NCBI GenBank assembly: GCA_028716665.1
Contig: JAQUPP010000001.1
Location: 477,046 to 541,045 of the forward strand
DNA from: Patescibacteria group bacterium
GTDB taxonomy: Bacteria; Patescibacteriota; Patescibacteriia; UBA2591; JAQUPP01
Length of the DNA stretch: 64,000 bases
Direction of reading: 5' to 3'
The translations under genes and the position numbers were made by a program. The first letter of the stretch is position 1, and each line of letters opens with the position of its first letter. The notes under the pieces were generated by a model. It had not been told where the DNA came from. It did not search any database and saw nothing but the letters and a program-made list of their open reading frames with translations. Of the stretch, positions 4,603 to 61,845 are shown piece by piece.

Positions 4603-7600
4603 ATGAGCAACACAAAAAAGTTTTTTTCAATTTTCGTGACAGCCACAACCATTTTGTGGTCAATGGGGCTGCCAACATTAGCAGGGGCATTAGTACCCAT
4701 AGCCGTAACCAACATTACGGTCTCAACAACTTCCGCGGAAATTACATTTAACGGACAATTTTCCGCAGAGACAAGTCCATCCTCAACAACTGAATTAGGA
4801 AGTGTAACCAATTACGCGACAGATTTGCGTAATTTTATTTTTGAAACAGGAGCAGGACTGACAGACAGAACATTAAGTCGATTTAGTCCTTATGATATGT
4901 CAACTCAAAATTTTCAGGCGGGTGAAAATGATTATCGTTTGAGAGTTTACGGTTTGGAAAGTTTGAAATTAAGTGAAGGACAAGCTTGGCAGATGACAGC
5001 CGGAGATATTAAAAATTTAGCTGGAACTCAAACTATAGAAGATTTTACGGCCAATAATACTGTCACTGCTTCTATTGATCCGACTATCAATTATATAATA
5101 AATAATGTTACCGCTGATTCTTGTTATAATTATCCTTGCGGCAACGTCGGTGATGAAGTAACAATTATTGGTTCTAATTTTGCCACCTCCACTGATGCGA
5201 CAGAAATTTTTTGGAATTTTAATGGAGGAAGCGTAACATCCACTCCCGCAACCGCTTCAGCTACTGAGCTCACCACTACAATTCCAACCGGGTTAAATGG
5301 TAAAGTGGATATGGTGATTAGCGATTTAAATACGCATCGTTTTTCGGCTGACTCCAGGCCGTTTATGATTTGGAATAATACGCAAGCCGTATTAATCGGC
5401 AATCTTACTTCAGATACATCTACTGACATAGATCGTGTTCAAGTTGAAGCTTTTGTTCCCGGACAAATGGGAAATGTCGTACCGGGCGAAACTCATTCCA
5501 ATGGAAAATATGCCTTGGTTTTAAATACGACAGGAAGTTATAATATACAATTTGGCACACCGGCCGGCGCGACTTATGTGGCGCCATCCAAGTTAAGCAG
5601 TCAAACTGCCACTGTCGGCTCAGTAACGCAATTGACCACTCAAGCTTTTAGAGCCGCCACTCTTTCGGGTACAGTTAAATCTCCCAGTGGCGCAACACTA
5701 TTGGAAGGCGTAGAAGTGGTGGCGCGTCCTTTTACATGGGATTATGAACAAAGAACAACAACCGGTCCAAACGGAACATGGAAACTTTATGTACCAAATG
5801 ATACAAGCAGCCAATGTTATGAAATTGAAGCCAGACCTAAAGATTATCAAGACAGGGTTTTACAATATAAAAGCGTCAGAACTACTCAATGTTTAACTTC
5901 AGGTCAAACAGCAACAGGTATTAATATTAATTTATCTGCTCAAAATGTTAAGGTAACGATTAAAGCTCCGGGTACTTTAGGCGATACTCCTACGGCAAGT
6001 AATCCTCAGCCGGGTTTGCCGGTGCCTTATGCCAGTGTTGGTCTTCATACCATGGATTGGAGTTATCAACAATGGGTTCAAGCTGATGCTGACGGTGTGG
6101 CTTATTTTGGGGGAGCAACTGATAGTACTCATTATATTTTAGAACTTGAGCCGCCATATAGCGGTGATTTCAGAAGTTATCCAAGAACAAGAACTGCGGA
6201 ATTTGCCATTGATGTTACGGATGGACAAATCACTGATTTGGGAGTTAAAACTTTTGCTTTGCCAAATGTTTTTGGAAAAGTAAAATGCGGGGGCGTAGCA
6301 ACAGTCGCTTGGATAAATATGAATAAAGATGGTTCTTGGTATGGTGTAAATACTGATGATAGCGGTAATTTCTCTCTTGGCGGCGTGGCGATTGGTACTT
6401 ACAATCTCCAAATTCAACCGGCAAGCGGCAGTACTTGCGCCAGCGGAAATTTTTCCGTTTCCATTACTTCAACTACATCTAATGATTTGAAAGATCAAGC
6501 TGATACTCTTGATGGTGTTGACGATGACGCGTTTACTTTATCAGCACCCAATGTGACAGGTGTAATTAAAGATCCAACCAATACAACCGGACAAAGCGGA
6601 GTTTGGATTAATTTTTGTCCTCATCAAATACCAGGTATGTGCTATGGCGCCAACACGCAAAGTGACGGAACATTCAGTTCAAACGTTCCATCTGGCAATT
6701 GGGATTTAAATGTTAACATTCAATACGGCAGTCTTTATGCTGCGCCGCAAGGCATGGTAATAACTGTTGCCGGCACTACTATTACTGAGACATCAGATCC
6801 GGGCACTGCTTTAACAATTGCTAACAATAGTTTACTTATTTTATTAAGCGATCCGTCAGTTAATGGTTTAACCGGTCGTGTTTGTAAACCAAAACATGAT
6901 GATAATTCAGCTGTGACTCAAGCCGAATGCGATGATCCAGCTGGTTATCCTGATATTGGCGCAACTAATGTTGGTATTAATATGCGATCACAAGGTTCAA
7001 TGTCAGGTTCTCAATGGTCACAAACAGATGCTAGTGGTAATTATGCTATTGGCGGCGTGGCAGTTGGAACTTATGAAATAGAAGCAAATCCTTGGAATGG
7101 TTGCGGCAGTATTAATTGCGGGAGAAAACTTGTTCAAAATGTTACAGTTACCAGCTCTCAAGCAAGTAGAAGAAAAAATATAATTTTAAGCACTCCGAAT
7201 ATTACCGGTACGGTTGTTATTCCAAATACCAGCACAACAGTGGCTAATGCTTGGATTAATTTTCATATTGAAGGACCAATGCAGGGCGGTACTACCGGTG
7301 GTTGGTATGGCACAAACACTAATCAAAACGGTCAATTCTCTTTTGGCGGTGTAGCTGCCGGAACCTATGCTTTGGAAATTGAAGCTCCTCGTTGGGGTTC
7401 AGCCGAAGAACAGGCTGTTTATCGAAATTATTCAACAAAAAAATATTCTAATATTACAATTTCTTCCGCGGTGGCGGCCGGAACTGATAGTTTAGATTTG
7501 GGCACGACTTATGGAACTGATGGAAAACTTATTCTCGGCACGCCGCAAGTTACAGGAAGAGTAATGAATCCGGGTGCGGACGGTATTGCCGAAACCGCAG

Positions 7601-15674: not shown

Positions 15675-18140
15675 ATGAAAGAGAAATTTAGATTCGGGCT
15701 TAATGTTAAATTGATTTTAATATTTACTCTTTTTGCTTTATTGCCGATTGCTTTGATCGGTTTTATTTCAATTTCCAGAACAACAACGGAGCTGGAGAAT
15801 GAAGCCACTAATCGCTTAAAAAGTCTTTCCCAAAGCGAAGCTGATAAAATCAATTTGTCATTGTCAAAAGTAAGTTCGGCCAGCAAAAATTTGGCTGATT
15901 TTGCCACCAATGTTTTTAATAATCCTGATCTTTTTTATCATCCGGATTATTGGTCAGCCGACAGTTTATTCAGAGGGCCGGAAGGGCAATATGGAAATTC
16001 AGCCAAGGAAGTTTCATCGGTCATTGTTTTTAATTGGTGTTCGCTTGATGATCAAGCAAAAAATGATTTGAATTTATCAGCTGATTTGGATTTTATTTTT
16101 CCGACAATAAAAAATGAAAATCCGAATACTGATAATATTTATATTATCGGCAATAAATATTGTTGGTATCGTCTTTATCCGAACTCCGATCCCAATCCTG
16201 ATAATCAAGGCGGTTTTGCCATGGATGTTTTGCCGGCTGATGCCAATAAAAATGGCGTAGCCGCTCCGTTCTGGGATGATTTAACCGAAATCAATAATCC
16301 TAATAAACTTGCCAAGTGGACACCGCCATATGTTGATATAACAGGACATGGTTTGATGATCTCGGCCTTGGCCCCGGTTTATCAAAATGATAAAATGAAA
16401 ATGTTAACCGGCGTTGATTTAACCCTGGAAGACATAACTAATCGTATTTTGAATATTAAATTATGGAAGACAGGTTATGCTTTTATGATTGACAAAGAAG
16501 CAAGATTAATCAGTTTACCGGTGCGAGCCCAGTCTGATTTGGGGATAGAAGAAGAGCAATTAGGAATTTCTGAAATCAGAAAATCAAGCTTGCTGGAAAC
16601 TTCCAATTCCGATTTGAAATACGCGGTAATGTCCATGATTAAAGGCAAGAACGGCATTGAAACAATTAAATTCAATCAATCGGAGAAATATATTGCTTAT
16701 TATCCAATCAAGGATACGGGCTGGAGTTTGGGATTAGTGGTTCCGGTAAATGAAGTTATCGCCAGCGCTCAGAATACCAAAAATTTTATTTTTATCGTTT
16801 TATTGGTTTTGGCTATCATTTTAATCATTCTGGCTTTTTTAAGTTCCAAAATGGTCAGCGCGCCGATTAAAAAATTAACCAGAGGAGCGGAAGAAATCAG
16901 TAAAGGAAATTTATTCTATCAAATAAAAATTAATACTCATGACGAAATTGAACAATTGGCTGACAGTTTCAATCAAATGACTTTAAAACTGAAAGCTTAT
17001 TATGAAACTTTGGAACAAAAAGTGAAAGAAAGAACCGAAGAATTGAGAATAGCCAAGGCGGAAATCGAACAAGAAAAAAACAGATTGGAAACAATTTTAA
17101 TCAGCATCGGTGACGGAGTTTTCGTGATTGATTCGGAAAAAAGATTGGCTCTTATTAATCCGGCTATTACGCGAATTGCATGTTTTACGGAGAAAGATTG
17201 TTTAGGCAAGCCTTATGATCAGGTTTTTAAAATTATCAAAGAAGAAGATAGAACGGAAAATAAAGATTTTATCAATCAAGCTTTAATAAATGGAAAATTA
17301 ACCGGTTTAGTCGATCCTTCTGTTTTATTAACCGGTGACGGGAAGGAGGTTCCGATTGCCAGTTCAGCCGCGCCTTTAAAAGATGAGAATGGTCAAATTA
17401 TCGGAGGAGTGGTTATTCTACACGACATTACCCGGGAGAGAGAAATTGACAAACTTAAATCTCAATTTATTTCTTTGGCTTCTCATCAACTTAGAACCCC
17501 TGCAACCATTATTAAATGGGGGGCGGAAATTTTACTTCAAAAATTAGGCGGGAAACTGGATGATAAAGAAAAAGAAGAAGTCCAGAGAATTTGTCGCGGA
17601 AGCGAGAGAATGGTGGAATTGGTTAATGACCTGCTTAATGTTTCGCGGCTTGATGCCGGTCGATTGGTTTTTAAAACAGAAACAAAACAATTGGAAGAAT
17701 TACTTGATTCTATTTTTGATGAATATAAGTTATATTTGGAAAAGAAAAATATAAAATTAAATGTGGAAAAACCGCCGATTCTTTTGCCAAAAGTTAATAT
17801 TGATTCAGAAAAAATTCGCCAAGTGATTATTATTTTATTGGATAACGCCATTAAATATTCTCCTGATAATTCGGAAATAAAAATAAAAATTGAACAAAAA
17901 GGAGAAGAAATACTTTATCAAACTTCCGATCAGGGCGTAGGCATACCGAAATCACAGCAAGAGAAAATTTTTTCCAGATTTTTTAGAGCTGATAATGTCA
18001 GTCAAAAACCGGGAACCGGCCTCGGGCTTTATTTGGCCAAAGGTTTAGTGGAAGTAAGCGGCGGAAAAATTTGGTTTGAGAGTGAAGAAAATAAAGGCAC
18101 AACTTTTTATTTCACCTTGCCGATTAGTTCACCCCGTTAG
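15675..18140 (+). CDS. Sensor histidine kinase (extracellular Cache-like domain, TM, HAMP, PAS, HisKA, HATPase_c)
   Basis: H-box SHQLRTPAT. G-boxes GTGLGLYLAKGLVEVSGGKIWFES. Two TM segments flank a ~330-aa periplasmic domain. Confidence 0.85.
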   Translation: MKEKFRFGLNVKLILIFTLFALLPIALIGFISISRTTTELENEATNRLKSLSQSEADKINLSLSKVSSASKNLADFATNVFNNPDLFYHPDYWSADSLFRGPEGQYGNSAKEVSSVIVFNWCSLDDQAKNDLNLSADLDFIFPTIKNENPNTDNIYIIGNKYCWYRLYPNSDPNPDNQGGFAMDVLPADANKNGVAAPFWDDLTEINNPNKLAKWTPPYVDITGHGLMISALAPVYQNDKMKMLTGVDLTLEDITNRILNIKLWKTGYAFMIDKEARLISLPVRAQSDLGIEEEQLGISEIRKSSLLETSNSDLKYAVMSMIKGKNGIETIKFNQSEKYIAYYPIKDTGWSLGLVVPVNEVIASAQNTKNFIFIVLLVLAIILIILAFLSSKMVSAPIKKLTRGAEEISKGNLFYQIKINTHDEIEQLADSFNQMTLKLKAYYETLEQKVKERTEELRIAKAEIEQEKNRLETILISIGDGVFVIDSEKRLALINPAITRIACFTEKDCLGKPYDQVFKIIKEEDRTENKDFINQALINGKLTGLVDPSVLLTGDGKEVPIASSAAPLKDENGQIIGGVVILHDITREREIDKLKSQFISLASHQLRTPATIIKWGAEILLQKLGGKLDDKEKEEVQRICRGSERMVELVNDLLNVSRLDAGRLVFKTETKQLEELLDSIFDEYKLYLEKKNIKLNVEKPPILLPKVNIDSEKIRQVIIILLDNAIKYSPDNSEIKIKIEQKGEEILYQTSDQGVGIPKSQQEKIFSRFFRADNVSQKPGTGLGLYLAKGLVEVSGGKIWFESEENKGTTFYFTLPISSPR

Positions 18141-18245
18141 AAGTTTCTTAAATATAAATTTCAAATAAAATTATTTGATAACATTAATAACCGTTGGAAC
18201 TTCCAACGGGGTAAATAAAATATATTAATTAATTAATTTTAAATT

Positions 18246-44111: not shown

Positions 44112-45305
44112 ATGCTCACTTGGATTGAAATTAAAAAACAAGCGATTAAACATAATCTTGGCCAATTCAGGAAAATTATCGGGCCGAAGGTGAAATTAAT
44201 GGCTGTGGTTAAAAGCAATGCTTACGGCCACGGAATAGTTGAAATAGCCAAAATTGCCTTAAAATCAGGGGCTAATTGGCTGGGGGTGGTTAATTTAGAC
44301 GAAGCGCTGATGCTTAGGCGGGCGAAAATCAAAGCCCCGATTTTTATTTTAAGCTACTGGCCCCTCACTTGCGGGCAAGAGAGAGACTACTGGGAAATGA
44401 TTGACCAAGTAAAAGAGGCGATTAAGCAAAATATTGATTTTCCTGTTTATACTTTTGAGCAAGCTGAATTTTTATCAAAAACCGCTAAAAGCATTAGAAA
44501 AAAAGTTAATATTCATATTAAAATTGATACCGGCGCGACCAGAATAGGCGTCTCAACCGAAGAAGCGGTTAATTTTATAAAAAGTATTAAGAATCTGCCA
44601 AATTTGAATATTGTCGGAATTTTTACTCATTACGCCGAATCAGAATCAAAAGATCAATCTTATACCAATCAACAAACGGAAAAATTTCAAAAAATATTAT
44701 CTTTGTTAAAATTTTTCGGCATTAAAATACCCTTGATTCACAGCGGTTGTTCGGCTTCAACAATTAATAATTCAAAAACATTTTTTAATTTGGTCAGAGT
44801 CGGCCTTGGCATGTACGGCCTTTATCCATCTGATTATACGAAAGTAAATGCTCAAAATAAAAAAAAATCCGCCCGAGGCGGATCGGCCTTGGGTCGAAAA
44901 GTTAAATTTGAACCGGCCTTATCATGGAAAACAAGAATTATTCAAATTAAAAATGTGCCTGCCGGAACTTTTGTCGGATATGACAGAACTTATCAAACAG
45001 ATAAAACGACAAAATTGGCTATTTTGCCAATCGGTTATTTCGACGGTTATGATCGCCATCTTTCAGACTGCGGCCAAGTTTTGATTCGCGGTAAATATTG
45101 CCCGATTCGCGGAAGAATTTGCATGAATTTAATAATGGTTGATGTCAGCAAAATACCTGACATCAAAGAAGGGGAAGAAGTGGTTTTAATCGGTAAACAA
45201 AATAAAAACGAAATTACAGTTGATGATTTGGCCAAGAAAATAGGCACTATCAATTACGAAGTAGTTTGCAGGATTAATTCATTAATTTTAAGAAAATATG
45301 TCTAA
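44112..45305 (+). CDS. alr: Alanine racemase
   Basis: MLTWIEIKKQAIKHNL...AVVKSNAYGHG (the PLP-Lys motif). I moved the start to 44112, because the tracked start at 44004 overlaps the upstream gene. Confidence 0.85.
   Translation: MLTWIEIKKQAIKHNLGQFRKIIGPKVKLMAVVKSNAYGHGIVEIAKIALKSGANWLGVVNLDEALMLRRAKIKAPIFILSYWPLTCGQERDYWEMIDQVKEAIKQNIDFPVYTFEQAEFLSKTAKSIRKKVNIHIKIDTGATRIGVSTEEAVNFIKSIKNLPNLNIVGIFTHYAESESKDQSYTNQQTEKFQKILSLLKFFGIKIPLIHSGCSASTINNSKTFFNLVRVGLGMYGLYPSDYTKVNAQNKKKSARGGSALGRKVKFEPALSWKTRIIQIKNVPAGTFVGYDRTYQTDKTTKLAILPIGYFDGYDRHLSDCGQVLIRGKYCPIRGRICMNLIMVDVSKIPDIKEGEEVVLIGKQNKNEITVDDLAKKIGTINYEVVCRINSLILRKYV
44859..44901. repeat. In-frame GC-rich palindromic insertion element inside alr, copy 1 of 3
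   Basis: aaaaaaaaatccGCCCGAGGCggatcgGCCTTGGGTCgaaaag. It encodes KKKSARGGSALGRK, and the stem CCCGAGGC/GCCTTGGG includes a G-U wobble. Confidence 0.6.
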
Positions 45306-45576
45306 ACAAAATCAAAAATCGCTTAAATTGGAAATCTTGGAAAAATTATCTTCTTTAATTACAGCCGGTTTCGGTTTAGTGGCGGCCTTGGCTTGGAATG
45401 AAGTAATTCAAGATTTTTTTGCTACAATTTTTCCAAAACCAAATATGCTCTTGGGAAAATTTATTTATGCCGTTATTATTACTTTGATTATCGTTATTAT
45501 TACCGTGAAACTGGGCAATATTATAAGCAAGCTTAAAGAGGCGATTAGCGAGGAAGAGAAAAATGAACCCCGCTAG
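45298..45576 (+). CDS. Small membrane protein (two TM segments), translationally coupled to alr
   Basis: The ATG overlaps the alr stop (ATGTCTAA). 92 aa with hydrophobic helices. Confidence 0.5.
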   Translation: MSKQNQKSLKLEILEKLSSLITAGFGLVAALAWNEVIQDFFATIFPKPNMLLGKFIYAVIITLIIVIITVKLGNIISKLKEAISEEEKNEPR

Positions 45577-45626
45577 AAATTTTTGTATTAGTAAGTTATT
45601 TAGCGGGTTATTTATGTAATAAATTT

Positions 45627-47351
45627 ATGGCAATTTCTAACGGGGTGAACAATAAAAAATGGGAGTTATCCCAAAAAATGCCAAATGATTTTAAAGATAA
45701 ATTTCCGGAAATTCATCCGGTGATTTTGCAATTGTTTTACAGTCGCGGACTTAAAACCCAAGAAGTGATTGATGAATTTCTTTTGCCTGATTATTCGCAA
45801 GACTTGCACGATCCTTTTATTTTTCAAGATATGGCCAAAGCGGTAGACAGAATTTATCAGGCCATTGAAAAAAAAGAAAAAATTTTAATTTACGGAGATT
45901 ATGATGCTGACGGAGTCACGTCTTCAGCTGTTCTGTTCAATGCTTTCACAAAATTGGGGACGGAATTTTTAAAAGTGTATATACCAGATCGAGAAAAAGA
46001 AGGATACAGCTTGCATAAAAAAGCGATTGAAAAATTTATTGAAGAGGGAATCAATTTGATTGTTACTTGCGATTGCGGCACTACGAATAAAGAAGAAGTG
46101 GAACAAATAAATCAGGCAAAGATGGATATTATTATCACTGATCATCATCCCACCACTCAAGAACTGCCCCCGGCTTATGCTATTATTAATCCTCAATTGC
46201 CGCGCGAAAAATATCCATTTCGTTCTTTGGCTGGCGTGGGAGTTGCCTTTAAATTGATTCAAGCTTTATTAAAAGATAAAAGATGCTTAATTCCGAATAA
46301 AGAATCTTTTGAAAAATGGATACTTGATTTGGTGGCTATCGGCACTATTTCTGACGTTATGCCGCTTTTGGGCGAGAATAGAACTTTAGTTAAATATGGA
46401 TTGGTTGTTTTGAATAAAACTTCCAATATAGGTTTAAAAGCTTTAATCACTCAGGCAGGCTTGACTTTGGGCGCGCTGGATACTTGGAGTGTTAATTTTC
46501 AAATTGGGCCCAGAATTAATGCCGCGGGCCGAGTCAGTCACGCTAATGATGTTTTAAACTTATTTTTAGAGACAGACCAGGAGAAGGTTAATGATTTAGC
46601 TATACATTTAAATTCTTTGAATACAAAACGGCAAAAGGCGGTGGATAAAATTTTAAAAGATATTAAAAAATCTCTAGGCGAAGAGGTTAAAGATAAAATA
46701 ATTGTGGTTTGCGGTGAAGATTGGCCAGCCGGTCTTCTGGCAATAATTGCCGGAAATTTAATGGATAAATATTTTAGACCGGCAATAGCTATATCAATTC
46801 ATAAGGAAGAAATATCTATGCGAGGTTCGGGCAGATCCATTCATGGTTTTGATTTGGCTAAAGTTTTAGAAAAATTTCATCATTACTTTTCTCATTATGG
46901 CGGCCACGCAAAAGCTTGCGGTTTTACATTGAAAGATAAAAATAATTTGGAAATTTTTATTAAAGAATTGACTCAACTGGCAAATGATAAATTAAAGGAT
47001 GAAGATTTGTGTCCAAGACTTTCAATTGACGCGGAAGTTAGTTTATCCGAAGTTGATTGGAGTTTATATGACGACTTAAAAAAACTTGAACCGTTTGGAC
47101 AGAATAATAATTGCCCTAATTTTTTGGTTTCCAATGTTAAATTGGACAATATTGAATCAGTCGGAAAAACCAGTCAGCATTCCAGATTAATCATTGAGAA
47201 GAGAAAAATGATTTATTTTAACGGCAATCAAAAAATGACTGAATTGAAAATAGGTGATAAAATAGATGTGGTGTTTCAACTAAGTATTAATCAGTGGAAC
47301 GGCCAGCAAGAATTGCAAATGAAAATTGTTGATATTAAAAAAGCTAACTAA
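45627..47351 (+). CDS. recJ: Single-stranded-DNA-specific exonuclease RecJ
   Basis: DHH motifs (ILIYGDYDADGVTSSAV, ...ITDHH...) plus a DHHA1 domain with a GGH motif. Confidence 0.85.
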   Translation: MAISNGVNNKKWELSQKMPNDFKDKFPEIHPVILQLFYSRGLKTQEVIDEFLLPDYSQDLHDPFIFQDMAKAVDRIYQAIEKKEKILIYGDYDADGVTSSAVLFNAFTKLGTEFLKVYIPDREKEGYSLHKKAIEKFIEEGINLIVTCDCGTTNKEEVEQINQAKMDIIITDHHPTTQELPPAYAIINPQLPREKYPFRSLAGVGVAFKLIQALLKDKRCLIPNKESFEKWILDLVAIGTISDVMPLLGENRTLVKYGLVVLNKTSNIGLKALITQAGLTLGALDTWSVNFQIGPRINAAGRVSHANDVLNLFLETDQEKVNDLAIHLNSLNTKRQKAVDKILKDIKKSLGEEVKDKIIVVCGEDWPAGLLAIIAGNLMDKYFRPAIAISIHKEEISMRGSGRSIHGFDLAKVLEKFHHYFSHYGGHAKACGFTLKDKNNLEIFIKELTQLANDKLKDEDLCPRLSIDAEVSLSEVDWSLYDDLKKLEPFGQNNNCPNFLVSNVKLDNIESVGKTSQHSRLIIEKRKMIYFNGNQKMTELKIGDKIDVVFQLSINQWNGQQELQMKIVDIKKAN

Positions 47352-48227: not shown

Positions 48228-48235
48228 TTAACAGC

Positions 48236-48628
48236 AGACTGGATAATTGCCCCCCACCACTTTTAGACCTTATTTATGTTTATTTATTATAGAGTCTAAA
48301 AGTGGTGCGGGGAGGAAAGTCCGAACACTTCCCTGGCTTTAGTCAGGGAGCAGGGTAGCGGGTAACGCCCGTCCACAGTAATGTGAGAGGTGCGAACAGT
48401 GACGCCGCAATCCGAAAGGGTTGAGGCTTCCGAACTTGTTCGGAAGAATCCCAAAAGTAATTTTGGGAGTGAAACGGCCAAATCCTTACCTGAGTGAAAG
48501 ACCAAAGGCTTTGTGCTTTGCACAAGGCAAGGTAGGTCGCCAGAACCTTGATGTAAATCAGGGTCCAGATAAATAATTATCGCCTTTCGGGGTACAGAAT
48601 TCGGCTTATAGGTCTACAACAAAAAAAT
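48236..48628 (+). ncRNA. rnpB: RNase P RNA (bacterial type A)
   Basis: The P4 strands GGAGGAAAGTCCGAAC and ACAGAATTCGGCTTA are universally conserved. GGGTAACGCCCGTCC (P10-P12 region). A 15-bp P3 hairpin with an AT-rich loop lies at 48256-48312. A terminator hairpin follows at 48629-48660. The ends are approximate. Confidence 0.8.
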
Positions 48629-50071: not shown

Positions 50072-51592
50072 ATGAAAAAATTAGAATTAGAAACAATAAT
50101 CGGTTTGGAAATTCATTTGGAAAGCAAAACTCAGAGCAAGCTTTTTTGTTCTTGTTCCAATAATACCAAATTAACCGAACCGAATGTTCAGATTTGCCCG
50201 ATTTGTCTGGGTCAACCCGGCGTATTGCCTGTATTTAATAAAGAAGCTTTAAAAAATGTTTTGATTTTAGGATTGGCATTAAAAGGAAAAATAAATTTAA
50301 TTTCTTGGTTTGACAGAAAAAATTATTTTTATCCAGACTTGCCGAAGGGTTATCAAGTCAGCCAATACAGTTTGCCTTTTATCAAAGGCGGATGCGTTGA
50401 AATTGACAGCGCGGATGGCATCAGAAAAATATCTTTGGAAAGAATTCATCTTGAAGAAGATACGGCCAAACTGATACATTCTTCTGATGATCAATGGAGT
50501 TTGCTTGATTTTAATCGGGCCGGCGTGCCGTTGATGGAGATAGTGACAGAACCGTGTCTAAAATCTCCATTTGAAGCAAAAATATTTTTACAAGAACTTC
50601 GCACCATTGCCAGATATTTGAATATTTCCGAAGCAGATATGGAAAAAGGACAATTTCGCTGCGACGCCAATATTTCATTAAGGCCGCAAGGAGAGAAAAA
50701 ATATTTTCCAAAAACGGAAATTAAAAATTTAAATTCGTTTAAAGCGGTGGAAGATGCCTTGGAATATGAAATAGAAAGACAAACAAAACTTTGGCAAGAA
50801 AAAAAACAACCCAAAATATCGTCTACTCGGGGCTGGAATGAAAAGAAAAAAAATACTTATCCTCAGAGAAGCAAAGAAGATGTCCAAGATTATCGTTATT
50901 TTCCCGAGCCGGATCTTCCCTCAATTGATTTTAATGAACTTAAAAAAGAGGATATAGATTTGGAGCTATTGGAAAAAAATATTATTGAATTACCCGGAAT
51001 TCGCAAGAAACGCCTTATTCAAATGTATAATTTTTCTTCAATTGATGCGAATATTTTAATTGAAAATAAAGGATTGGTTGATTTTATTGAAGAAACACTG
51101 GTTAAATTAAGAGAATGGATTGTTTCTACTGATATAATTGATGGCACGGAAGAGGAAATTTGGGAAACATCCAAACATCAAATTTCAAAAGTAACCGCCA
51201 ATTGGCTGATTAATCGTCTATTACCCTTACTTAAAAAGGCGGGAAAAAATGAAAAAGATATTTCATCGGAAAAATTCGTTGAATTCATTGTTTTGATTTA
51301 TGAAAAAAAGATTTCAAGCACTCTGGCGCAGACGATACTGGAAAGAATGTTTATTAAAGATGAAAATTTGAGCCAAATTATGGATCATCCCAGTGTTAAA
51401 CAAATTGACAGCGAAGATAATTTAATTGATATTGTAAAAGAGGTTATTAAAAATAACCAAGATACGGTTATTAGATATAAACAGGGGAAACACCAGGTTG
51501 TTCAATATCTGATCGGACAAGTAATGAAAAAGACCAACGGGCAGGCAAATCCCAAGTTGGTCCAGGAATTATTTGAGAAAGAATTAAGCTAA
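50072..51592 (+). CDS. gatB: Asp-tRNA(Asn)/Glu-tRNA(Gln) amidotransferase subunit B
   Basis: IIGLEIHLESKTQSKLFCSCS...PGVLPV... plus a C-terminal GatB/YqeY domain. Confidence 0.9.
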   Translation: MKKLELETIIGLEIHLESKTQSKLFCSCSNNTKLTEPNVQICPICLGQPGVLPVFNKEALKNVLILGLALKGKINLISWFDRKNYFYPDLPKGYQVSQYSLPFIKGGCVEIDSADGIRKISLERIHLEEDTAKLIHSSDDQWSLLDFNRAGVPLMEIVTEPCLKSPFEAKIFLQELRTIARYLNISEADMEKGQFRCDANISLRPQGEKKYFPKTEIKNLNSFKAVEDALEYEIERQTKLWQEKKQPKISSTRGWNEKKKNTYPQRSKEDVQDYRYFPEPDLPSIDFNELKKEDIDLELLEKNIIELPGIRKKRLIQMYNFSSIDANILIENKGLVDFIEETLVKLREWIVSTDIIDGTEEEIWETSKHQISKVTANWLINRLLPLLKKAGKNEKDISSEKFVEFIVLIYEKKISSTLAQTILERMFIKDENLSQIMDHPSVKQIDSEDNLIDIVKEVIKNNQDTVIRYKQGKHQVVQYLIGQVMKKTNGQANPKLVQELFEKELS

Positions 51593-52567
51593 AAATTTTT
51601 TAATTAAAATTTGAGCTTGGTTTAATTTTTTAATCCACTTTATACGTTTGTCGCGTTTAAACCATGTAATTTGACGCTTGGCATAATGCCGAGTGTTTTT
51701 TTTAATCAAATCTGTGGCTTCAGGAAGAGTTATTTCATTTCGCAGATAAGAAATAATTTCTTTATAACCGATTCCGCTAAAAGCCCGCGAATGAGCAAGA
51801 CCTGTCTTTGCCAAGGCTCCGGTAGGCAGGTATTTTTTTATCAATTTTTTAACTTCATCTATTAATCCTATATCAATCATTTTATCAACGCGCTGATTGA
51901 TTTTTTGATATAAAGTCTGACGAGGCAAATTGATGCCGATTAAAAGAGTTTTAAAAAGCGGTTCACCTTTTTGACGCGCCTGAGAGAAAGGTTTTTTGGT
52001 TTTTAAACAAACTTCCAGGGCGCGAATAACGCGGCGAATATTTTCTTTTTGAATGAATTTTTTTGCTTCAGGGTCAAGTTTGATTAATTTTTTCCAGAGG
52101 TAATCAGGTCCGTATTGATTAGCCATTTTTTCCAGTTTTTTTCTTAATTTTTCATCAGGCGCGATTGCCGGAATATCAAAATTATCCACCAGAGAGCTGA
52201 TATATAAACCGGTTCCGCCCACTAAAAACGGAGTTTTATTTCTTTTTTGAATATCATCAATGATTTCTATCGCTTTTTGTTTGAATTGCGCTACGGTGAA
52301 TTCTTGATTCGGCTGTATAATATCAATCATGTGATGCTGAATTCCATTAATAATATATCTGTTCCGGGTTTTGGGCACTGCTTTGGCGGTACCAATATCC
52401 ATTCCTTTATAAATTGTCCGGCTGTCGGCGCAAATAATTTCTACGCCATGCCAGCCCGAGGCTGGTCGGCCTTGGGCCGAAATTTTTTTTGCCAATTTTA
52501 AAGCTATATCAGTTTTGCCTGAAGCGGTAGGACCTAAAATAACAATGAGTTTTTTACGATTTGACAT
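51584..52567 (-). CDS. miaA: tRNA dimethylallyltransferase
   Basis: P-loop LIVILGPTASGKT, then ...ICADSRTIYKGMDIGTAK.... It carries a 12-aa in-frame insertion (see the repeat at 52449-52490). Confidence 0.85.
   Translation of the reverse strand: MSNRKKLIVILGPTASGKTDIALKLAKKISAQGRPASGWHGVEIICADSRTIYKGMDIGTAKAVPKTRNRYIINGIQHHMIDIIQPNQEFTVAQFKQKAIEIIDDIQKRNKTPFLVGGTGLYISSLVDNFDIPAIAPDEKLRKKLEKMANQYGPDYLWKKLIKLDPEAKKFIQKENIRRVIRALEVCLKTKKPFSQARQKGEPLFKTLLIGINLPRQTLYQKINQRVDKMIDIGLIDEVKKLIKKYLPTGALAKTGLAHSRAFSGIGYKEIISYLRNEITLPEATDLIKKNTRHYAKRQITWFKRDKRIKWIKKLNQAQILIKKFLA
52449..52490. repeat. In-frame GC-rich palindromic insertion element inside miaA, copy 2 of 3
   Basis: The plus strand reads gccaGCCCGAGGCtggtcgGCCTTGGGCcgaaatttttttt. 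On the minus strand it encodes SAQGRPASGWHG between the P-loop and the ICADS segment. Confidence 0.6.
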
Positions 52568-52607: not shown

Positions 52608-53369
52608 ATGAATATTTTTATAAAAACATTACTTGGCGAAACTCATCCTCTTAATTTATTGTTTTATTTATTGCTTTGCGCCGGCCCGACATTATTATGG
52701 TTCTTCTTTTGTTTAAGATTTGATCGCCGGCAGCCGGAACCAAAACGCGAGATTTTTAAATTTTTCAGTTTGGGGGCGATTATTACCATCCCTTTAATTT
52801 TTATTGCCGGGCCAATAACGAATTGGGTGGAACAAAATTTGTTATTAAATTCAATTTTAATAATTTTTATTTTGTCTTTTTTGGTTGATGGCCTGATTGA
52901 AGAATTGGCTAAATACGTTTTATTAAATTGGAGTCTTTATCGTTGCCGTTATTTTGATGAGATAAAAGACGGTTTTGTTTACGGTATGAGTCTCAGTTTG
53001 GGTTTGGCATTTACGGAAAATATTCTTTATGCTCTTTTTTCTAAAGATTTAGCCAACGGATCTGTGATTTTATTATTCAGGGGTTTCACCACTACTTTTA
53101 TGCATTATTTGTCAGGAGGAATTATCGGTTATCATTTGGCAATGGCTAAATTTTATAAGGGTAAAAGAATGACTCAGAAAATGTTTAAGTTTAGGGGTTT
53201 GATTTTAGCCATTCTGCTCCACGGATTATATAACAGCATTATCAGATTTAATTTTATGTGGGGTTTTATACCTCTGGCGATTATTCTCTGGATTGTATAT
53301 TTTATTATTGTTTACGAAATGAAAGCGACTACAAACAACCTTCTAGGCCCCACGAAGCCGCTTGAGTAA
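52608..53369 (+). CDS. PrsW-family intramembrane protease (CPBP-like)
   Basis: EELAKY (the EExxK motif), FTENxLY, an HxxxN/D-like motif (LLHGLYN) and multiple TM helices. I moved the start to the ATG at 52608 to avoid overlapping miaA. Confidence 0.5.
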   Translation: MNIFIKTLLGETHPLNLLFYLLLCAGPTLLWFFFCLRFDRRQPEPKREIFKFFSLGAIITIPLIFIAGPITNWVEQNLLLNSILIIFILSFLVDGLIEELAKYVLLNWSLYRCRYFDEIKDGFVYGMSLSLGLAFTENILYALFSKDLANGSVILLFRGFTTTFMHYLSGGIIGYHLAMAKFYKGKRMTQKMFKFRGLILAILLHGLYNSIIRFNFMWGFIPLAIILWIVYFIIVYEMKATTNNLLGPTKPLE

Positions 53370-54624
53370 TTTTTACATTGTAAAACTCGTTAATTTTTAT
53401 TAATGAGTTTTCCTGCCCAGGGCCGGTCAGCCTTGGGCTGATATTTTTTAAAAATATTTTAATATGTTTAAAAGTATCAGTCACACCGTAAAGATTATTT
53501 TTTTTATCATAACCGATTATTAACACTTCTATAATTTTTCCGATATATTTTTTATTATTTTCCAAAGCCGTTTTTTTTAAAATTTCATTTAAAATTTCTT
53601 CGCGTTGTTTTTTTTCTTCCTTGGTTACGTTATCTTTAAAAGTTTTGGCCGCCAAGGTTTGAGGACGAGGGGAGTATTGGGCAAGATAAGCCATGTCAAA
53701 TTTTAGAGAGCGCATCAATTTAGCTGTATCGTTAAATTGTTTTTTTGTTTCGCCCGGAAAACCGACAATAATGTCAGTGGAAATGCTGAGATTTTGTATT
53801 TTTCCACGAAGCTTTTTAATCAGATTCTTATAATAAGATACGGTATAATGCCGGTTCATTTTTTTAAGTATTTCGTTATTGCCGGCCTGTATCGGCAAGT
53901 GCATATATGGCCCGACTTTCTTACATTCAGCGATGGTATTAATGAGTTCGTCAGTCAAATCTTTTGGATGATTGGTGATAAATCTTAACCAAAATTTACC
54001 CGGCAAATTATCCACCATTTTTAAAAGTTGGGAAAAATTAACATCGTTTTTTTGATAAGAATTTACGTTTTGTCCCAATAAAATTATTTCTTTATAATTG
54101 TCTTTTAATAATTTTTTAATTTCGGAAATAATGATTTTTGGAGATCTGGAGGTTTCTCGGCCTCGGGTGTAGGGGACGACGCAATAAGCGCAGAAGTTGT
54201 TGCAGCCGGTCATAATCGGCACATAAGCGGTAATAGGCGAAGAAATAACGGGTAAAATGGATAAATAGTCATCGGTTTGTTTGTTCTGTTGTTTGGTTAA
54301 AAATTTTGTTAATTTTGGCAAATCTTTTATATCAAATATCAAATCAAATTTTTCTTTTAATTTATTTTTATCTTTTAAGAGAACGCAGCCGGTTAAAATA
54401 ATTTTAAGATTAGGATTCTGTTTTTTAATTCGATTAAAATTTTTAATCATTCCGTAAACCCGATCTACAGCTTTTTGGCGAACCGAACACATATTAACAA
54501 TAATCAAATCCGCCTCGTTAATTTTTGAGGTTTCTTTATATCCGATATTTTCCAAAACTGCGGCGATTCTTTCTGAATCGCTTTTATTCATTTGGCAACC
54601 GAAAGTGATAAGATTGTATTTCAT
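53329..54624 (-). CDS. miaB: tRNA-i6A37 methylthiotransferase MiaB (radical SAM)
   Basis: MKYNLITFGCQMNKSDSE (MTTase N-terminus), radical SAM CxxxCxxC (CNNFCAYC) and a C-terminal TRAM domain. The start is set at the ATG at 54622-54624; the tracked start is a TTG 30 nt upstream. The 3' end overlaps prsW by 41 nt. Confidence 0.85.
   Translation of the reverse strand: MKYNLITFGCQMNKSDSERIAAVLENIGYKETSKINEADLIIVNMCSVRQKAVDRVYGMIKNFNRIKKQNPNLKIILTGCVLLKDKNKLKEKFDLIFDIKDLPKLTKFLTKQQNKQTDDYLSILPVISSPITAYVPIMTGCNNFCAYCVVPYTRGRETSRSPKIIISEIKKLLKDNYKEIILLGQNVNSYQKNDVNFSQLLKMVDNLPGKFWLRFITNHPKDLTDELINTIAECKKVGPYMHLPIQAGNNEILKKMNRHYTVSYYKNLIKKLRGKIQNLSISTDIIVGFPGETKKQFNDTAKLMRSLKFDMAYLAQYSPRPQTLAAKTFKDNVTKEEKKQREEILNEILKKTALENNKKYIGKIIEVLIIGYDKKNNLYGVTDTFKHIKIFLKNISPRLTGPGQENSLIKINEFYNVKITQAASWGLEGCL
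53411..53449. repeat. In-frame GC-rich palindromic element inside the miaB TRAM-domain region, copy 3 of 3 (diverged)
   Basis: tcctGCCCAGGGCcggtcaGCCTTGGGCtgatatttttt, which encodes ...ISPRLTGPGQ... on the minus strand. Confidence 0.5.
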
Positions 54625-54724
54625 ATGAGTTGATAATAAATTAACGAGCCCCAAAGGGGCCCCGTTGGGGTCAACGAATCTTTTACTCGTTAACTTGCCA
54701 AACTCGTTAATTATTTTGCTTTGA

Positions 54725-57744: not shown

Positions 57745-57897
57745 ACTAAAATTATTTAAAAATTAAGTTTGAGCTCTGCGAAAACGCAAAATTTTTAACT
57801 ATAATTTTGTGTACCCGCCCAGATTTTTGGATATTTAATTATTATTTTTTAAGATAACTTGATTTTTTTAATAATCCAAAAACTTGGGCGGGTGAAT

Positions 57898-57933
57898 GTT
57901 TTGTTGTTCCGACTTAACGTCCGGAGACAAAAC
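57898..57933. repeat. Hairpin element (GTTTTGT-TTCCGAC-ttaac-GTCCGGAG-ACAAAAC), an inverted copy of 61681-61717
   Basis: The reverse complement matches agttttgtctccggacgttaagtcgga(g/a)c(t/a)acaaaac at 61681. Confidence 0.6.
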
Positions 57934-57953
57934 TATTCATATTATACCATTTT

Positions 57954-61551: not shown

Positions 61552-61680
61552 ATGATTTTTTTTGATTATTATTTTATTAAAATAAACATTATTTGACCTG
61601 TCTTAATTTTAGTCCTTAAATAGAAATTTTGCAATACCCATTGCCATATTTTAGCATATTTGTTAAAATAATTATAAAGA

Positions 61681-61845
61681 GTTTTGTCTCCGGACGTTAA
61701 GTCGGAGCTACAAAACCTTTACCCCCTCCTTTATCCCAACAATAAACTTTTGATAATCATTAGGGTAAAAGGCGAAGCCGCTTCGCTTACATAAGATTAT
61801 AAATCAATAGACCTTCGATGGAGTAAAGGAGGGGGTACTCAAAAT
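61681..61845. repeat. Structured intergenic repeat element, copy B (AGTTTTGT-CTCCGGAC-gtta-AGTCGGAG-ct-ACAAAAC, then a 13-bp CCCCCTCCTTT/AAAGGAGGGGG stem)
   Basis: It shares arms and stem sequences with copy A at 30763-30945. Both lie upstream of SD-less genes with the start context aaaaaattt(t)ggtATG. Confidence 0.6.

What the first reader, a model, noticed from the sequence alone, without database searches (positions are those of the whole stretch)
53383..53449. miaB 3' end carries a diverged copy of the element plus a near-perfect AT palindrome, all inside the 41-nt convergent overlap region with prsW
miaB (-) and the PrsW-like gene (+) overlap by 41 nt. The last ~25 MiaB codons contain AACTCGTTAAT-tttt-ATTAATGAGTT (53383-53409, one mismatch) and then the GC element GCCCAGGGCCGGTCAGCCTTGGGC. 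That element encodes an extra ISPRLTGPGQ segment in the TRAM domain. Coding sequence, a terminator-like hairpin for the converging gene and a repeat element are therefore superimposed here.
Basis: seen in the sequence. Interest (0 to 1): 0.55.

Follow-up and report, generated by a model that had tools for sequence, protein, structure and literature searches.

The report
Mobile 30-base hairpin insert in miaB
The end of the tRNA-modification gene miaB carries a decayed copy of a 30-base, two-hairpin DNA module that is scattered in-frame through housekeeping genes of many Patescibacteria, and it landed beside a conserved hairpin that probably ends transcription of the gene coming the other way.

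Summary
However, both lie 13-72 nt past the prsW stop codon, not inside the 41-nt miaB/prsW overlap.

The GC segment is a diverged member (36 bits, E 5e-8) of a 30-nt module made of two 6-bp hairpins.

MiaB orthologues 92-94% identical lack the insert. One carries a different 72-nt palindromic element in the loop of the neighbouring AT hairpin, and another carries the 30-mer elsewhere in miaB. In the protein, the insert is a predicted disordered loop in the TRAM domain.

The module occurs across many Patescibacteria classes. About 78% of sampled copies sit inside genes, and 68 of 97 of those share one frame, encoding SAQGGPASGW. It also sits next to small GIY-YIG nuclease genes beside class II tRNA genes.

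The AT hairpin kept its pairing through four double substitutions and kept a strand-asymmetric G.U pair. It looks like this genome's other terminators, so a prsW terminator inside miaB codons is likely but unproven.

I found no description of the module in the papers searched.

The parts
52608..53369 (+). prsW-like intramembrane protease gene. The mechanical ORF starts at TTG 52515. ATG 52608 gives 253 aa, the length in the relatives.
   Evidence: PF13367, 1e-32
53329..54654 (-). miaB (tRNA methylthiotransferase). The true start is probably the ATG at 54624, as in P0001 and P0002.
53329..53369 (.). 41-nt convergent coding overlap of miaB and prsW. It is 41/41 identical to L001, against about 90-92% in the flanks.
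53382..53411 (+). AT-rich stem-loop with a 13-bp stem, TTTT loop and one G.U pair. It has an A-tract/stem/T-tract layout and starts 13 nt after the prsW stop. It encodes MiaB residues around ENSLIKINEF. It is the candidate prsW terminator.
53412..53441 (+). Diverged copy of the 30-nt double-hairpin module. Hairpin 1 (CCTGCC-CAG-GGCCGG) has one mismatch. Hairpin 2 (TCAGCC-TTG-GGCTGA) is intact. Read on the minus strand, it encodes the SPRLTGPGQ loop of MiaB.
53441..53457 (.). Small AT palindrome ATATTTTT-T-AAAAATAT. It lies within the 14-15 extra AT-rich bases that accompany the 30-mer relative to L004. Its origin is unexplained.
52451..52480 (+). Well-preserved copy of the module inside miaA (minus-strand gene), encoding SAQGRPASGW. 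It is absent from L001.
44868..44897 (+). Copy of the module inside alr (plus-strand gene), encoding SARGGSALGR. It is shared with L001.

Best explanation
Two separate things lie side by side just past the prsW stop codon, both inside the last 40 or so codons of miaB.

(1) An AT-rich stem-loop at 53382-53411. Relatives have the same structure with a different sequence. It most likely acts on the prsW-sense transcript as its factor-independent terminator or 3'-end hairpin. On the miaB-sense transcript it is weaker, because the G.U pair becomes an A/C mismatch, and translating ribosomes would keep it unfolded.

(2) Directly after its 3' arm, in what is a T-tract in relatives, sits a decayed copy of a 30-nt module (53412-53441) built of two 6-bp GC hairpins with 3-nt loops.
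- The module is mobile DNA. It is gained and lost between genomes about 90% identical.
- One clean case adds exactly 30 nt (10 codons) with no target duplication.
- It has no stop codon in any frame.
- It survives where the encoded decapeptide falls in a tolerant loop.

Here it lies in a rarely used frame. It has since accumulated changes (canonical SPRLIRLGR to SPRLTGPGQ) that soften the peptide and break hairpin 1. It forms a predicted disordered loop between two TRAM strands.

Shown: family membership, insertion polarity, the two-hairpin covariation, the frame bias and the loop position.
Inferred: the terminator function, peptide-level selection, and how the module moves.
For: Family membership and structure:
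- Model R1 scores the copy at 36.2 bits, and there are exactly three copies in the window.
- The double hairpin is paired in 98.9% of cells. Pairs (1,15), (3,13) and (18,28) switch between C-G, T-A, A-T and G-C. Covariation is 0.273 against 0.091 in shuffles, 0 of 500.

Insertion polarity:
- P0002 and P0003 (93-94% identity) and all orthologues at 58-66% identity have a short loop at this site.
- At the DNA level the window has +30 nt net against L001 and +45 nt against L004.

Mobility:
- Six coding sites differ by presence or absence between the window and L001, at 88-91% nucleotide identity.
- One is a clean +30: GAGATTTT|GTATTTTT becomes GAGATTTT[30 nt]ATATTTTT.
- L004 and L005 carry a different 72-nt palindromic element in the loop of the same AT hairpin.

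Tolerance in the protein:
- AlphaFold pLDDT is below 50 for residues 405-416 (ISPRLTGPGQEN), between strands 397-401 and 424-433.

Frame bias:
- 68 of 97 coding copies share one orientation and frame.

AT hairpin:
- It is only 21/30 identical to L001 yet fully paired in both. There are four double compensatory changes, and the G.U is kept at the same stem position.
- Energies are -11.7 and -11.9 kcal/mol in the prsW sense, against -7.9 and -5.1 in the miaB sense.
- T8 follows the stem in L001 and L003.
- It has the same A-tract/stem/T-tract design as the window's intergenic terminator-like hairpins.
- L126 and L127 have a hairpin plus T-run at the same place.
Against: - There are no transcript 3'-end data.
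- A broader test gave nothing. The 80-nt folding energy downstream of the prsW stop in 9 convergent loci is not distinguishable from control windows. L128 has almost no hairpin.
- In the window itself the T-tract after the AT stem is interrupted by the insert.
- The compensatory changes could come from a mutational process (templated correction within quasi-palindromes) rather than from selection.
- No transposase, target duplication or donor copy was identified, and only one empty/filled pair is perfectly clean.
- The 14-15 extra AT-rich bases next to the insert are unexplained.
- The window's exact miaB allele was seen in this one assembly only. The best database hit is 90-91% identical.
Confidence: 0.7

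Rival explanations
1. The inserted GC module itself now serves as the prsW terminator, alone or together with the AT hairpin. Its intact second hairpin (UCAGCC-UUG-GGCUGA) is followed at once by UAUUUUUU on the prsW-sense strand. On this reading the insert was retained because it strengthened termination between the converging genes.
For: - The consensus scan ranks 53415-53438 plus TGATATTTTT second among terminator-like sites in 51-56 kb.
- The prsW-sense fold of 53375-53460 is three consecutive hairpins at -31.6 kcal/mol, z = -5.8.
- The miaA copy also has a T8 run after it on the same strand.
Against: - Relatives do without it and have AT hairpin plus T8.
- Across 124 copies the usual 3' flank is AA(A/T), not a T-run.
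- Most copies lie inside genes, and 80 of 97 of those are antisense to the host gene.
- The miaA copy has no nearby upstream plus-strand gene to terminate.
- There is no expression evidence.
Confidence: 0.2
2. The AT hairpin has no transcriptional role. It is a DNA-level quasi-palindrome that persists and 'self-corrects' by intrastrand template switching. It matters only as a preferred landing site for hairpin-type mobile elements.
For: - Two different elements landed in or next to it in sister lineages: the 72-nt element in its loop in L004 and L005, and the 30-mer at its 3' foot here.
- Paired double changes are what templated palindrome correction produces.
- The broad energy test was negative.
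Against: - Templated correction should make the palindrome perfect. Instead the same G.T/A.C asymmetry is kept in both sequence versions.
- Its position 13 nt after a stop codon and its A-tract/stem/T-tract design match the window's other terminator-like hairpins.
Confidence: 0.2
3. The 30-mer is not mobile DNA but a functional recognition sequence that accumulates by biased uptake and recombination, like the DNA uptake sequences of Neisseria and Haemophilus. Those also show reading-frame bias and sit in tolerant protein regions.
For: - The sequence is conserved across many Patescibacteria classes.
- There is a strong frame bias, and copies sit in linker-like regions such as the DnaJ G/F region.
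Against: - Copies differ from empty sites by clean 30-nt indels, not by point mutations.
- Density is low: 3 per 64 kb here and about 1 per 110-140 kb in MiaB-anchored Patescibacteria loci not chosen for the element. Uptake sequences occur about once per kb (own knowledge).
- Hairpin covariation is not expected for a duplex recognition site.
Confidence: 0.05
4. Assembly or annotation artefact: the insert or the overlap comes from a mis-assembly or a frameshift.
For: The window's own miaB allele was not found in any other sample.
Against: - The reading frame stays open through the insert, and the C-terminus aligns to orthologues to the last residue.
- The overlap is reproduced in eight independent contigs from JGI, NCBI and ENA.
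- Family copies occur in more than 100 independent assemblies, including single-cell genomes.
Confidence: 0.02

Closest known systems
Rickettsia palindromic elements (RPE; 'selfish DNA in protein-coding genes', own knowledge)
   Same: - Palindromic repeat inserted in-frame into housekeeping genes of a reduced, AT-rich genome.
- Presence or absence varies between close relatives.
- The encoded peptide sits in surface or loop regions and is tolerated.
   Different: - RPEs are roughly 100-150 bp and confined to Rickettsia. This module is 30 nt and consists of two direct mini-hairpins.
- It is conserved almost base for base across many Patescibacteria classes.
- It shows one dominant frame.
- It has a resident copy beside GIY-YIG/tRNA cassettes.
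REP/REPIN elements mobilised by RAYT (Y1, IS200-like) transposases
   Same: - Size of 20-40 nt.
- A GC-rich imperfect hairpin whose stem covaries.
- No terminal inverted repeats and no target duplication.
- Often terminator-adjacent.
   Different: - REPs are extragenic and carry a GTAG or CGTC head (PMC3733652). Here 78% of copies are intragenic and there is no such head.
- No Y1 or RAYT homologue was found in about 1 Mb of held sequence.
GC clusters of yeast mitochondria, double-hairpin elements of Allomyces, and repetitive hairpin elements of sponge mitochondrial DNA (PMC4478555, PMC2800124)
   Same: - Short GC-rich hairpin modules spreading in AT-rich compact genomes.
- Sometimes found inside coding regions.
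- A two-hairpin architecture in the double-hairpin elements.
   Different: - Those are organellar and lineage-restricted, with variable sequence.
- No comparable frame bias has been reported, and no link to a nuclease-tRNA cassette.
Intrinsic (often bidirectional) terminators between convergent genes
   Same: The AT hairpin has an A-tract/stem/T-tract layout just after a stop codon, like the window's intergenic terminator-like hairpins.
   Different: - It lies wholly inside the coding sequence of the opposing gene.
- A conserved G.U/A.C asymmetry favours one strand.
- Function is untested.
Free-standing GIY-YIG homing endonuclease genes
   Same: A small GIY-YIG ORF sits at a fixed place next to a conserved gene (class II tRNA). 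Part of the target is duplicated, and an insertion interrupts the duplicated target.
   Different: - Known homing does not scatter a 30-nt module into unrelated genes.
- No cleavage or homing has been shown for this 80-94 aa protein family.

Membership tests
Patescibacterial 30-nt double-hairpin module (defined here, model R1) | Significant match to the covariance model built from foreign copies | tested here: met
   36.2 bits, E 4.6e-8 at 53409-53444 (+). The reverse strand scores 27.4 bits.
Patescibacterial 30-nt double-hairpin module (defined here, model R1) | Two adjacent 6-bp stems with 3-nt loops (CGA and TTG) | tested here: inconclusive
   Hairpin 2 (TCAGCC-TTG-GGCTGA) is intact and carries a compensatory A-T pair. 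Hairpin 1 (CCTGCC-CAG-GGCCGG) has a T/C mismatch and an altered loop. This makes it a decayed member.
Patescibacterial 30-nt double-hairpin module (defined here, model R1) | Insertion, in multiples of three, relative to orthologues that lack it | tested here: met
   +30 nt net against L001 and +45 nt against L004. Orthologues at 58-94% identity have a short loop.
Rickettsia palindromic elements (RPE) | Length around 100-150 bp, Rickettsia sequence families | tested here: not met
   The unit is 30 nt and the host is Patescibacteria.
Rickettsia palindromic elements (RPE) | In-frame insertion into protein-coding genes | tested here: met
   97 of 125 sampled copies lie inside ORFs of at least 120 aa, and all three window copies are in genes.
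REP / REPIN (RAYT-mobilised) | Extragenic location | tested here: not met
   About 78% of copies are intragenic.
REP / REPIN (RAYT-mobilised) | Conserved GTAG or CGTC tetranucleotide at one end | tested here: not met
   Position matrix of 124 copies: the ends are YCN...NGA, and the flanks are T at -2 and AA at +31/+32.
REP / REPIN (RAYT-mobilised) | Cognate Y1 (RAYT) transposase in the genome | tested here: inconclusive
   tblastn with IS200 TnpA, IS608 TnpA and E. coli RAYT gave no hit at E <= 1 in the window and all loci held at that point (L001-L208). Whole genomes were not available.
MITE | Terminal inverted repeats plus target-site duplication | tested here: not met
   The module is two direct hairpins. 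The clean filled/empty pair in miaB shows no duplication. By contrast, the window's other family (CCCCGYTAGAA ends, TGAAC duplication) does fit.
IS200/IS605-derived hairpin elements (PATE-like) | A hairpin at each end, no inverted repeats, no duplication, insertion 3' of a short conserved target | tested here: inconclusive
   The hairpins and the lack of duplication fit. The target signal is weak: T at -2 in 75% of copies. No TnpA was found.
Intrinsic terminator (AT hairpin, prsW sense) | Stable stem-loop followed by a U-tract shortly after the stop codon | tested here: met
   The 13-bp stem starts 13 nt after the TAA. T8 follows in L001 and L003. In the window the tract is split by the insert.
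Intrinsic terminator (AT hairpin, prsW sense) | Transcripts actually end there | not testable with these tools
   No RNA data. The comparative energy test was uninformative.
DNA uptake sequences (USS/DUS) | High density, arising by point substitution | tested here: not met
   Density is 1 per 21 kb here and about 1 per 110-140 kb in MiaB-anchored loci not chosen for the element. Copies are clean indels.
RNA-excised insertion (intron-like) | No dependence on reading frame | tested here: not met
   68 of 97 coding copies are in one of six frames, so the module is evidently read by ribosomes.

The most novel reading that the evidence does not exclude
The 30-nt module may be the recognition or mobile end of a previously unrecognised nuclease system of Patescibacteria. 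The system is a small (80-94 aa) GIY-YIG nuclease gene lodged directly upstream of class II tRNA genes. A resident copy of the module interrupts a duplicated tRNA 5' fragment at the D-loop. On this reading the nuclease, or repair of its breaks, copies the module into T-rich sites of housekeeping genes. That would be a new kind of nuclease-driven mobile DNA that writes a 10-residue linker into proteins.
Probability: 0.3. Interest if true: 0.85.

Novelty: new variant of a known kind. Interest (0 to 1): 0.7.

Why it matters
A 30-base sequence is kept almost letter for letter across a whole bacterial superphylum and is repeatedly written in-frame into essential genes such as DnaJ, SecA, MiaA, MiaB, Alr and Hsp70. 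This bears on three things.

- **How minimal genomes tolerate selfish DNA.** This is about the smallest self-propagating DNA unit one could imagine. It gives a natural experiment on which protein loops accept a 10-residue insert.
- **Annotation of Patescibacteria.** The inserts break domain models. The TRAM domain is no longer detected in this MiaB.
- **A mobilising enzyme.** The tight link to GIY-YIG/tRNA cassettes gives a concrete, testable candidate.

The local arrangement also offers a compact case of a terminator-like hairpin written into the codons of the opposing gene.

Tried and rejected
- **Single 9-12 bp hairpin model of the GC element.** The sequence is compatible with it, but the free positions show no covariation.
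- **Rfam.** No family matches at the site. The only window hit is RNase P RNA.
- **Literature.** I searched by element sequence, by encoded peptides and by topic (Patescibacteria with MITE/REP/palindromic/intragenic terms; GIY-YIG with tRNA). Nothing describes it. This covers the held library only.
- **Viral contigs.** Zero matches in IMG/VR, so there is no sign of a phage vector.
- **Y1/RAYT transposase search.** No hits.
- **Metagenome scan for close MiaB relatives.** It found only one close relative, already known as L002. The other 79 loci served as a set not chosen for the element, used to estimate its density.
- **Folding-energy test of a terminator across 9 convergent loci.** Uninformative.
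- **Replication-strand bias as the cause of orientation.** All three window copies are on the + strand, but L001 has three on one strand and two on the other. Outside frame 0 the orientation split is only 12 to 7. Peptide-level selection explains the bias better.
- **Uptake-sequence, RNA-excision and artefact readings.** Rejected for the reasons given under the rival explanations.
Full report
**1. Checking the observation**

The window is AT-rich (35.5% GC) and comes from a member of the Patescibacteria. MiaB's best hits are Patescibacteria MAGs.

The prsW-like ORF on the + strand ends with TAA at 53367-53369. miaB on the - strand ends at 53329. They share 41 nt. Pfam confirms PrsW-protease (1e-32). 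It finds Radical_SAM and UPF0004 in MiaB.

The convergent overlap is not an annotation accident.
- It recurs in eight independent contigs: 41 nt in L001, L002, L004 and L005, 65 nt in L003 where the stop is mutated, and 32, 44 and 48 nt in relatives with 62-66% MiaB identity.
- It is 41/41 identical between the window and L001, while the two genes are otherwise 90-92.5% identical.

The AT palindrome is real and slightly longer than reported. The stem is 13 bp (53382-53394 with 53399-53411), the loop is TTTT, and the one mismatch is a G.T. Energy is -11.7 kcal/mol with z = -7.4.

The GC string is at 53415-53438 exactly.

One thing is wrong in the finding. Neither feature is in the overlap. Both lie 13-72 nt beyond the prsW stop, in sequence that codes only for MiaB.

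**2. What the GC element is**

The repeat finder groups it with two other copies, all on the + strand: one in alr (44871) and one in miaA (52454).

A syntenic relative, L001 (88-91% nucleotide identity), has five copies in 21 kb. Aligning copies with their flanks shows that the unit is 30 nt, not 24:

[YCNGCC-CGA-GGCNGR][TCNGCC-TTG-GGCNGA]

That is two adjacent 6-bp hairpins with 3-nt loops.

Nearly all are Patescibacteria, from many classes: Magasanik-, Falkow-, Sacchari-, Moran-, Nealson-, Staskawicz-, Nomura-, Doudna-, Giovannoni-, Uhr-, Kaiser- and Paceibacteria. Two GC-rich hits (L031, L072) look like chance matches.

The positions left free by the pattern covary exactly as the double hairpin predicts.
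- Pair (1,15): C-G 61, T-A 59.
- Pair (3,13): A-T 62, C-G 53, T-A 4, G-C 3.
- Pair (18,28): C-G 81, G-C 25, A-T 11, T-A 2.
- Overall, 98.9% of cells are paired, and the covariation score is 0.273 against 0.091 in shuffles (0 of 500).

A covariance model of 109 distinct copies (R1) finds exactly three copies in the window.

| Host gene | Model hit | Score |
|---|---|---|
| miaA | 52448-52483 | 58.5 bits |
| alr | 44865-44900 | 52.5 bits |
| miaB | 53409-53444 | 36.2 bits, E 4.6e-8 |

So 'a diverged copy' is correct. In the miaB copy, hairpin 2 is intact and carries a compensatory A-T pair. Hairpin 1 has a T/C mismatch and a changed loop.

**3. History of the miaB site**

The TRAM loop reads as follows in the protein alignment.

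| Source | MiaB identity to window | Loop sequence |
|---|---|---|
| Window | - | HIKIFLKNISPRLTGPGQENSLIKINEF |
| P0002, P0003 | 93-94% | HILVKFGQKKLPIKIGNF |
| P0004-P0010 | 63-66% | NVKIKDPKGSLKIGQF |
| P0001 | 92% | HIKINSLI[HPVRSHSAKGTVTVTLGQPASNGV]KINEF |

The short loop is therefore ancestral, and the window's extra residues are a gain.

At the DNA level, the P0001 extra is a different 72-nt palindromic element with ends CCCCGTTAGAAGC...GCTTCTAACGGGG. It is inserted in the loop of the same AT hairpin. Relative to that locus (L004), the window has 45 extra bases: the 30-mer plus 14-15 AT-rich bases of unknown origin.

P0003 carries the 30-mer at another place in miaB (KKISAQGGPASGWKNL, in the radical-SAM domain). 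There the window has the empty site, and the comparison is clean: GAGATTTT|GTATTTTT against GAGATTTT[30 nt]ATATTTTT, with no target duplication.

In all, six coding sites differ by presence or absence of the module between the window and L001. They lie in alr, the RNase H gene, miaA (two sites) and miaB (two sites).

An AlphaFold model of the window's MiaB (mean pLDDT 82.9) has pLDDT below 50 for residues 405-416 (ISPRLTGPGQEN). This is coil between TRAM strands 397-401 and 424-433. The Pfam TRAM model is no longer detected in this MiaB or in P0001. It is detected in the uninserted relatives.

**4. The family at large**

Of 125 sampled copies, 97 lie inside ORFs of at least 120 aa.

| Orientation and frame | Copies | Encoded peptide |
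|---|---|---|
| Reverse, frame 0 | 68 | SAQGGPASGW, SAQGRSASGG and close variants |
| Forward, frame 0 | 10 | SARGGSALGR, PARGGSALGG |
| Other four frames combined | 19 | various |

The common variants have no stop codon in any of the six frames. The forward-frame exception is the GGCTGATCC variant.

The bias therefore means that the module is translated and that the small, flexible peptide is the best tolerated. Outside frame 0 the orientation split is only 12 to 7, which argues against a purely mechanical orientation bias.

The miaB copy is in a rare frame, whose canonical peptide is SPRLIRLGR. Its substitutions (I to T, R to G, L to P, R to Q) replace bulky or charged residues with small or uncharged ones, at the cost of hairpin 1. 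I read this as amelioration, which is an inference.

Host genes are diverse. There are 166 Pfam families among 96 ORFs: DnaJ 9, SecA 3, MiaA 3, CCA-adding enzyme 3, Hsp70 2, PheS 2 and others. DnaJ G/F regions hold intact and decayed copies side by side.

The flanks show T at -2 (75%) and A at +31 and +32 (62% and 78%). Empty sites are T-rich on the 5' side.

Density varies widely.
- In 422 kb of MiaB-anchored Patescibacteria loci, not chosen for the element, there are only 3-4 copies.
- The window has 3 in 64 kb, and L001 has 5 in 21 kb. The module has therefore expanded in this lineage.

IMG/VR viral contigs have no match.

**5. An unexpected partner**

Several non-coding copies sit 10-48 nt upstream of a small ORF starting MYYVYIL... 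This is a GIY-YIG nuclease (PF01541). The ORF is followed within a few bases by a tRNA-Ser gene and preceded by a duplicated 5' fragment of that tRNA (L014, L026, L050, L079, L122; L070 is divergent).

In all five, the ORF is followed 3-7 nt later by a class II tRNA (Ser in four, Tyr in one).

| Locus | Position of the module |
|---|---|
| L209 | 11 nt upstream of the ATG, forward |
| L213 | 18 nt upstream of the ATG, forward |
| L212 | 14 nt upstream of the ATG, reverse |
| L210 | Upstream, as a nested or variant form (14 bits) |
| L214 | 15 nt after the tRNA |

Where it is upstream, the module interrupts the duplicated tRNA fragment between positions 12/13 and 14, which is the D-loop.

Given a background of about one copy per 100 kb, this association cannot be chance. 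It offers an explanation for the module's conservation across the superphylum, namely a resident copy in a conserved cassette. It also gives a candidate mobilising enzyme. That step is hypothesis only.

No such ORF is in the window or in L001. No Y1 or RAYT transposase was detected in any held sequence.

**6. The AT hairpin**

Between the window and L001/L003, this 30-nt stretch is only 70% identical. It is the most diverged piece of the region, lying right next to the 100% identical overlap. Yet both versions form a 13-bp stem.

- Window: AAAACTCGTTAAT-TTTT-ATTAATGAGTTTT
- L001/L003: AGAAATTGCCAAT-TTTT-ATTGGTAATTTTT

Four pairs changed on both sides, and the G.T is kept at the same stem position. 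The amino acids change with them: NSLIKINEF against KLPIKIGNF.

The asymmetry makes the hairpin stronger on the prsW-sense transcript (-11.7 and -11.9 kcal/mol) than on the miaB-sense transcript (-7.9 and -5.1).

In L001 and L003, T8 follows the stem. L126 and L127 have AAAGATCC-TTTT-GGATCTTT plus a T-run at the same place. L128 has hardly any hairpin.

The window's other long hairpins are mostly A-tract/stem/T-tract structures at gene ends, for example at the 3' end of RNase P RNA. The miaB one has the same design.

I therefore think it is the prsW terminator. It would be shielded on the miaB strand by translation (established principle) and by the A/C mismatch. A cruder test, the 80-nt folding energy downstream of the prsW stop in nine convergent loci, did not separate the site from controls. 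The function therefore stays inferred. Templated correction within a quasi-palindrome is a live alternative for the paired changes.

**7. How the two fit together**

The 30-mer sits directly at the 3' foot of the AT stem, where relatives have the T-tract. This matches the family's preference for a T-rich 5' flank.

In a sister lineage, a different element entered the loop of the same hairpin. This spot, a terminator-like hairpin in a tolerant protein loop, is thus a recurrent landing site.

After insertion, hairpin 2 followed by UAUUUUUU could itself terminate prsW transcripts. I rate that as a secondary possibility.

**8. Comparison with known systems, and novelty**

Functionally, the module behaves like Rickettsia palindromic elements: in-frame selfish palindromes in housekeeping genes. 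Structurally it is nearest to REP-type hairpins and to mitochondrial double-hairpin or GC-cluster elements.

It fails the defining tests of each (size and host for RPE; extragenic location and the GTAG/CGTC head for REP; inverted repeats and duplication for MITEs). It also differs from all of them in three ways.
- Its sequence is constant across the superphylum.
- It has one dominant reading frame.
- It has a GIY-YIG/tRNA partner.

I found no description of it by sequence, by peptide or by topic in the searchable library. That is not proof of absence.

I file it as a new variant of a known kind.

Caveats:
- The genome scan was truncated and used a strict pattern, so the sampled copies are the best-preserved ones.
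- Many MAG labels are automatic.
- Nothing here is backed by RNA, protein or biochemical data.

Noticed in passing
L209, L212, L213, L210/L211, L214, L014, L026, L050, L079, L122 (e.g. L209:1140-1555): There is a conserved cassette in Patescibacteria. Its order is: a duplicated 5' fragment of a class II tRNA interrupted by the 30-mer at the D-loop, then an 80-94 aa GIY-YIG ORF (MYYVYIL...), then 3-7 nt, then an intact tRNA-Ser or tRNA-Tyr. It was found in 5 of 5 GIY-YIG homologues that were not selected for the element.
   Followed up: partly
window 18132-18211 and 45564-45645; L004 about 6015-6086: This is a second, unrelated small element of about 72-80 nt. It has inverted ends CCCCGYTAGAA and, at 45564-45645, a TGAAC duplication against the empty site in L001. 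A copy sits in the loop of the miaB AT hairpin in L004 and L005.
   Followed up: partly
window 48231-48624: Bacterial RNase P RNA (121 bits). The orthologous gene in L001 carries several extra segments (28, 37 and 11 nt near window position 48260-48305, and 148 nt near 48589). The RNA gene is therefore also an indel hotspot.
   Followed up: no
window 44351-44383: A further 33-nt in-frame gain in alr relative to L001 (AAGCTACTGGCCCCTCACTTGCGGGCAAGAGAG, encoding ...SYWPLTCGQE...). It is GC-rich and not a member of the 30-mer family.
   Followed up: no
window 57874-57948 and 61673-61724 (also 57746-57829, 61784-61828): Two 52-nt arms, 88% complementary and 3.7 kb apart (GGGTGAATGTTTTGTTGTTCCGACTTAACGTCCGGAGACAAAAC...). 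The first arm lies within a 75-nt window-only gain relative to L001. Several other window-only segments of 45-84 nt lie nearby. They may belong to a third small repeat family.
   Followed up: no
window 54636-54715 (thrS-miaB spacer): The GC palindrome CCCCAAAGGGGCCCCGTTGGGG, a likely thrS terminator, lies between TTAACGAG and CTCGTTAA arms. The 11-mer AACTCGTTAAT of the miaB 3' hairpin recurs exactly at 54701. The layout resembles 'AT hairpin with a GC element in its loop'.
   Followed up: partly
L023, L034, L040, L055, L065, L067, L071, L073, L100, L028 (dnaJ): The G/F-rich linker of DnaJ in many Patescibacteria holds one intact 30-mer (FSAQGGPASGWDF). It often also holds decayed or opposite-orientation copies, such as SARGGSAFGG, GGQAASGW and SAQGGPAEGW. 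The linker is partly built from this module.
   Followed up: partly
L003:8224-8288: In GCA_028717225.1 the miaB stop codon is lost. MiaB runs on for 8 more residues, which lengthens the overlap with prsW to 65 nt.
   Followed up: no
window about 51.5-53 kb: Gene orientation switches here: mostly + strand before gatB ends at 51592, mostly - strand after. AT skew changes sign, and cumulative GC skew flattens after about 53 kb. This may be a replication landmark.
   Followed up: no
L103:2262-2334; L100:2353-2544; L090:898-1200: Some loci hold two or three copies of the 30-mer within 40-300 nt. One pair in L103 is directly tandem.
   Followed up: no
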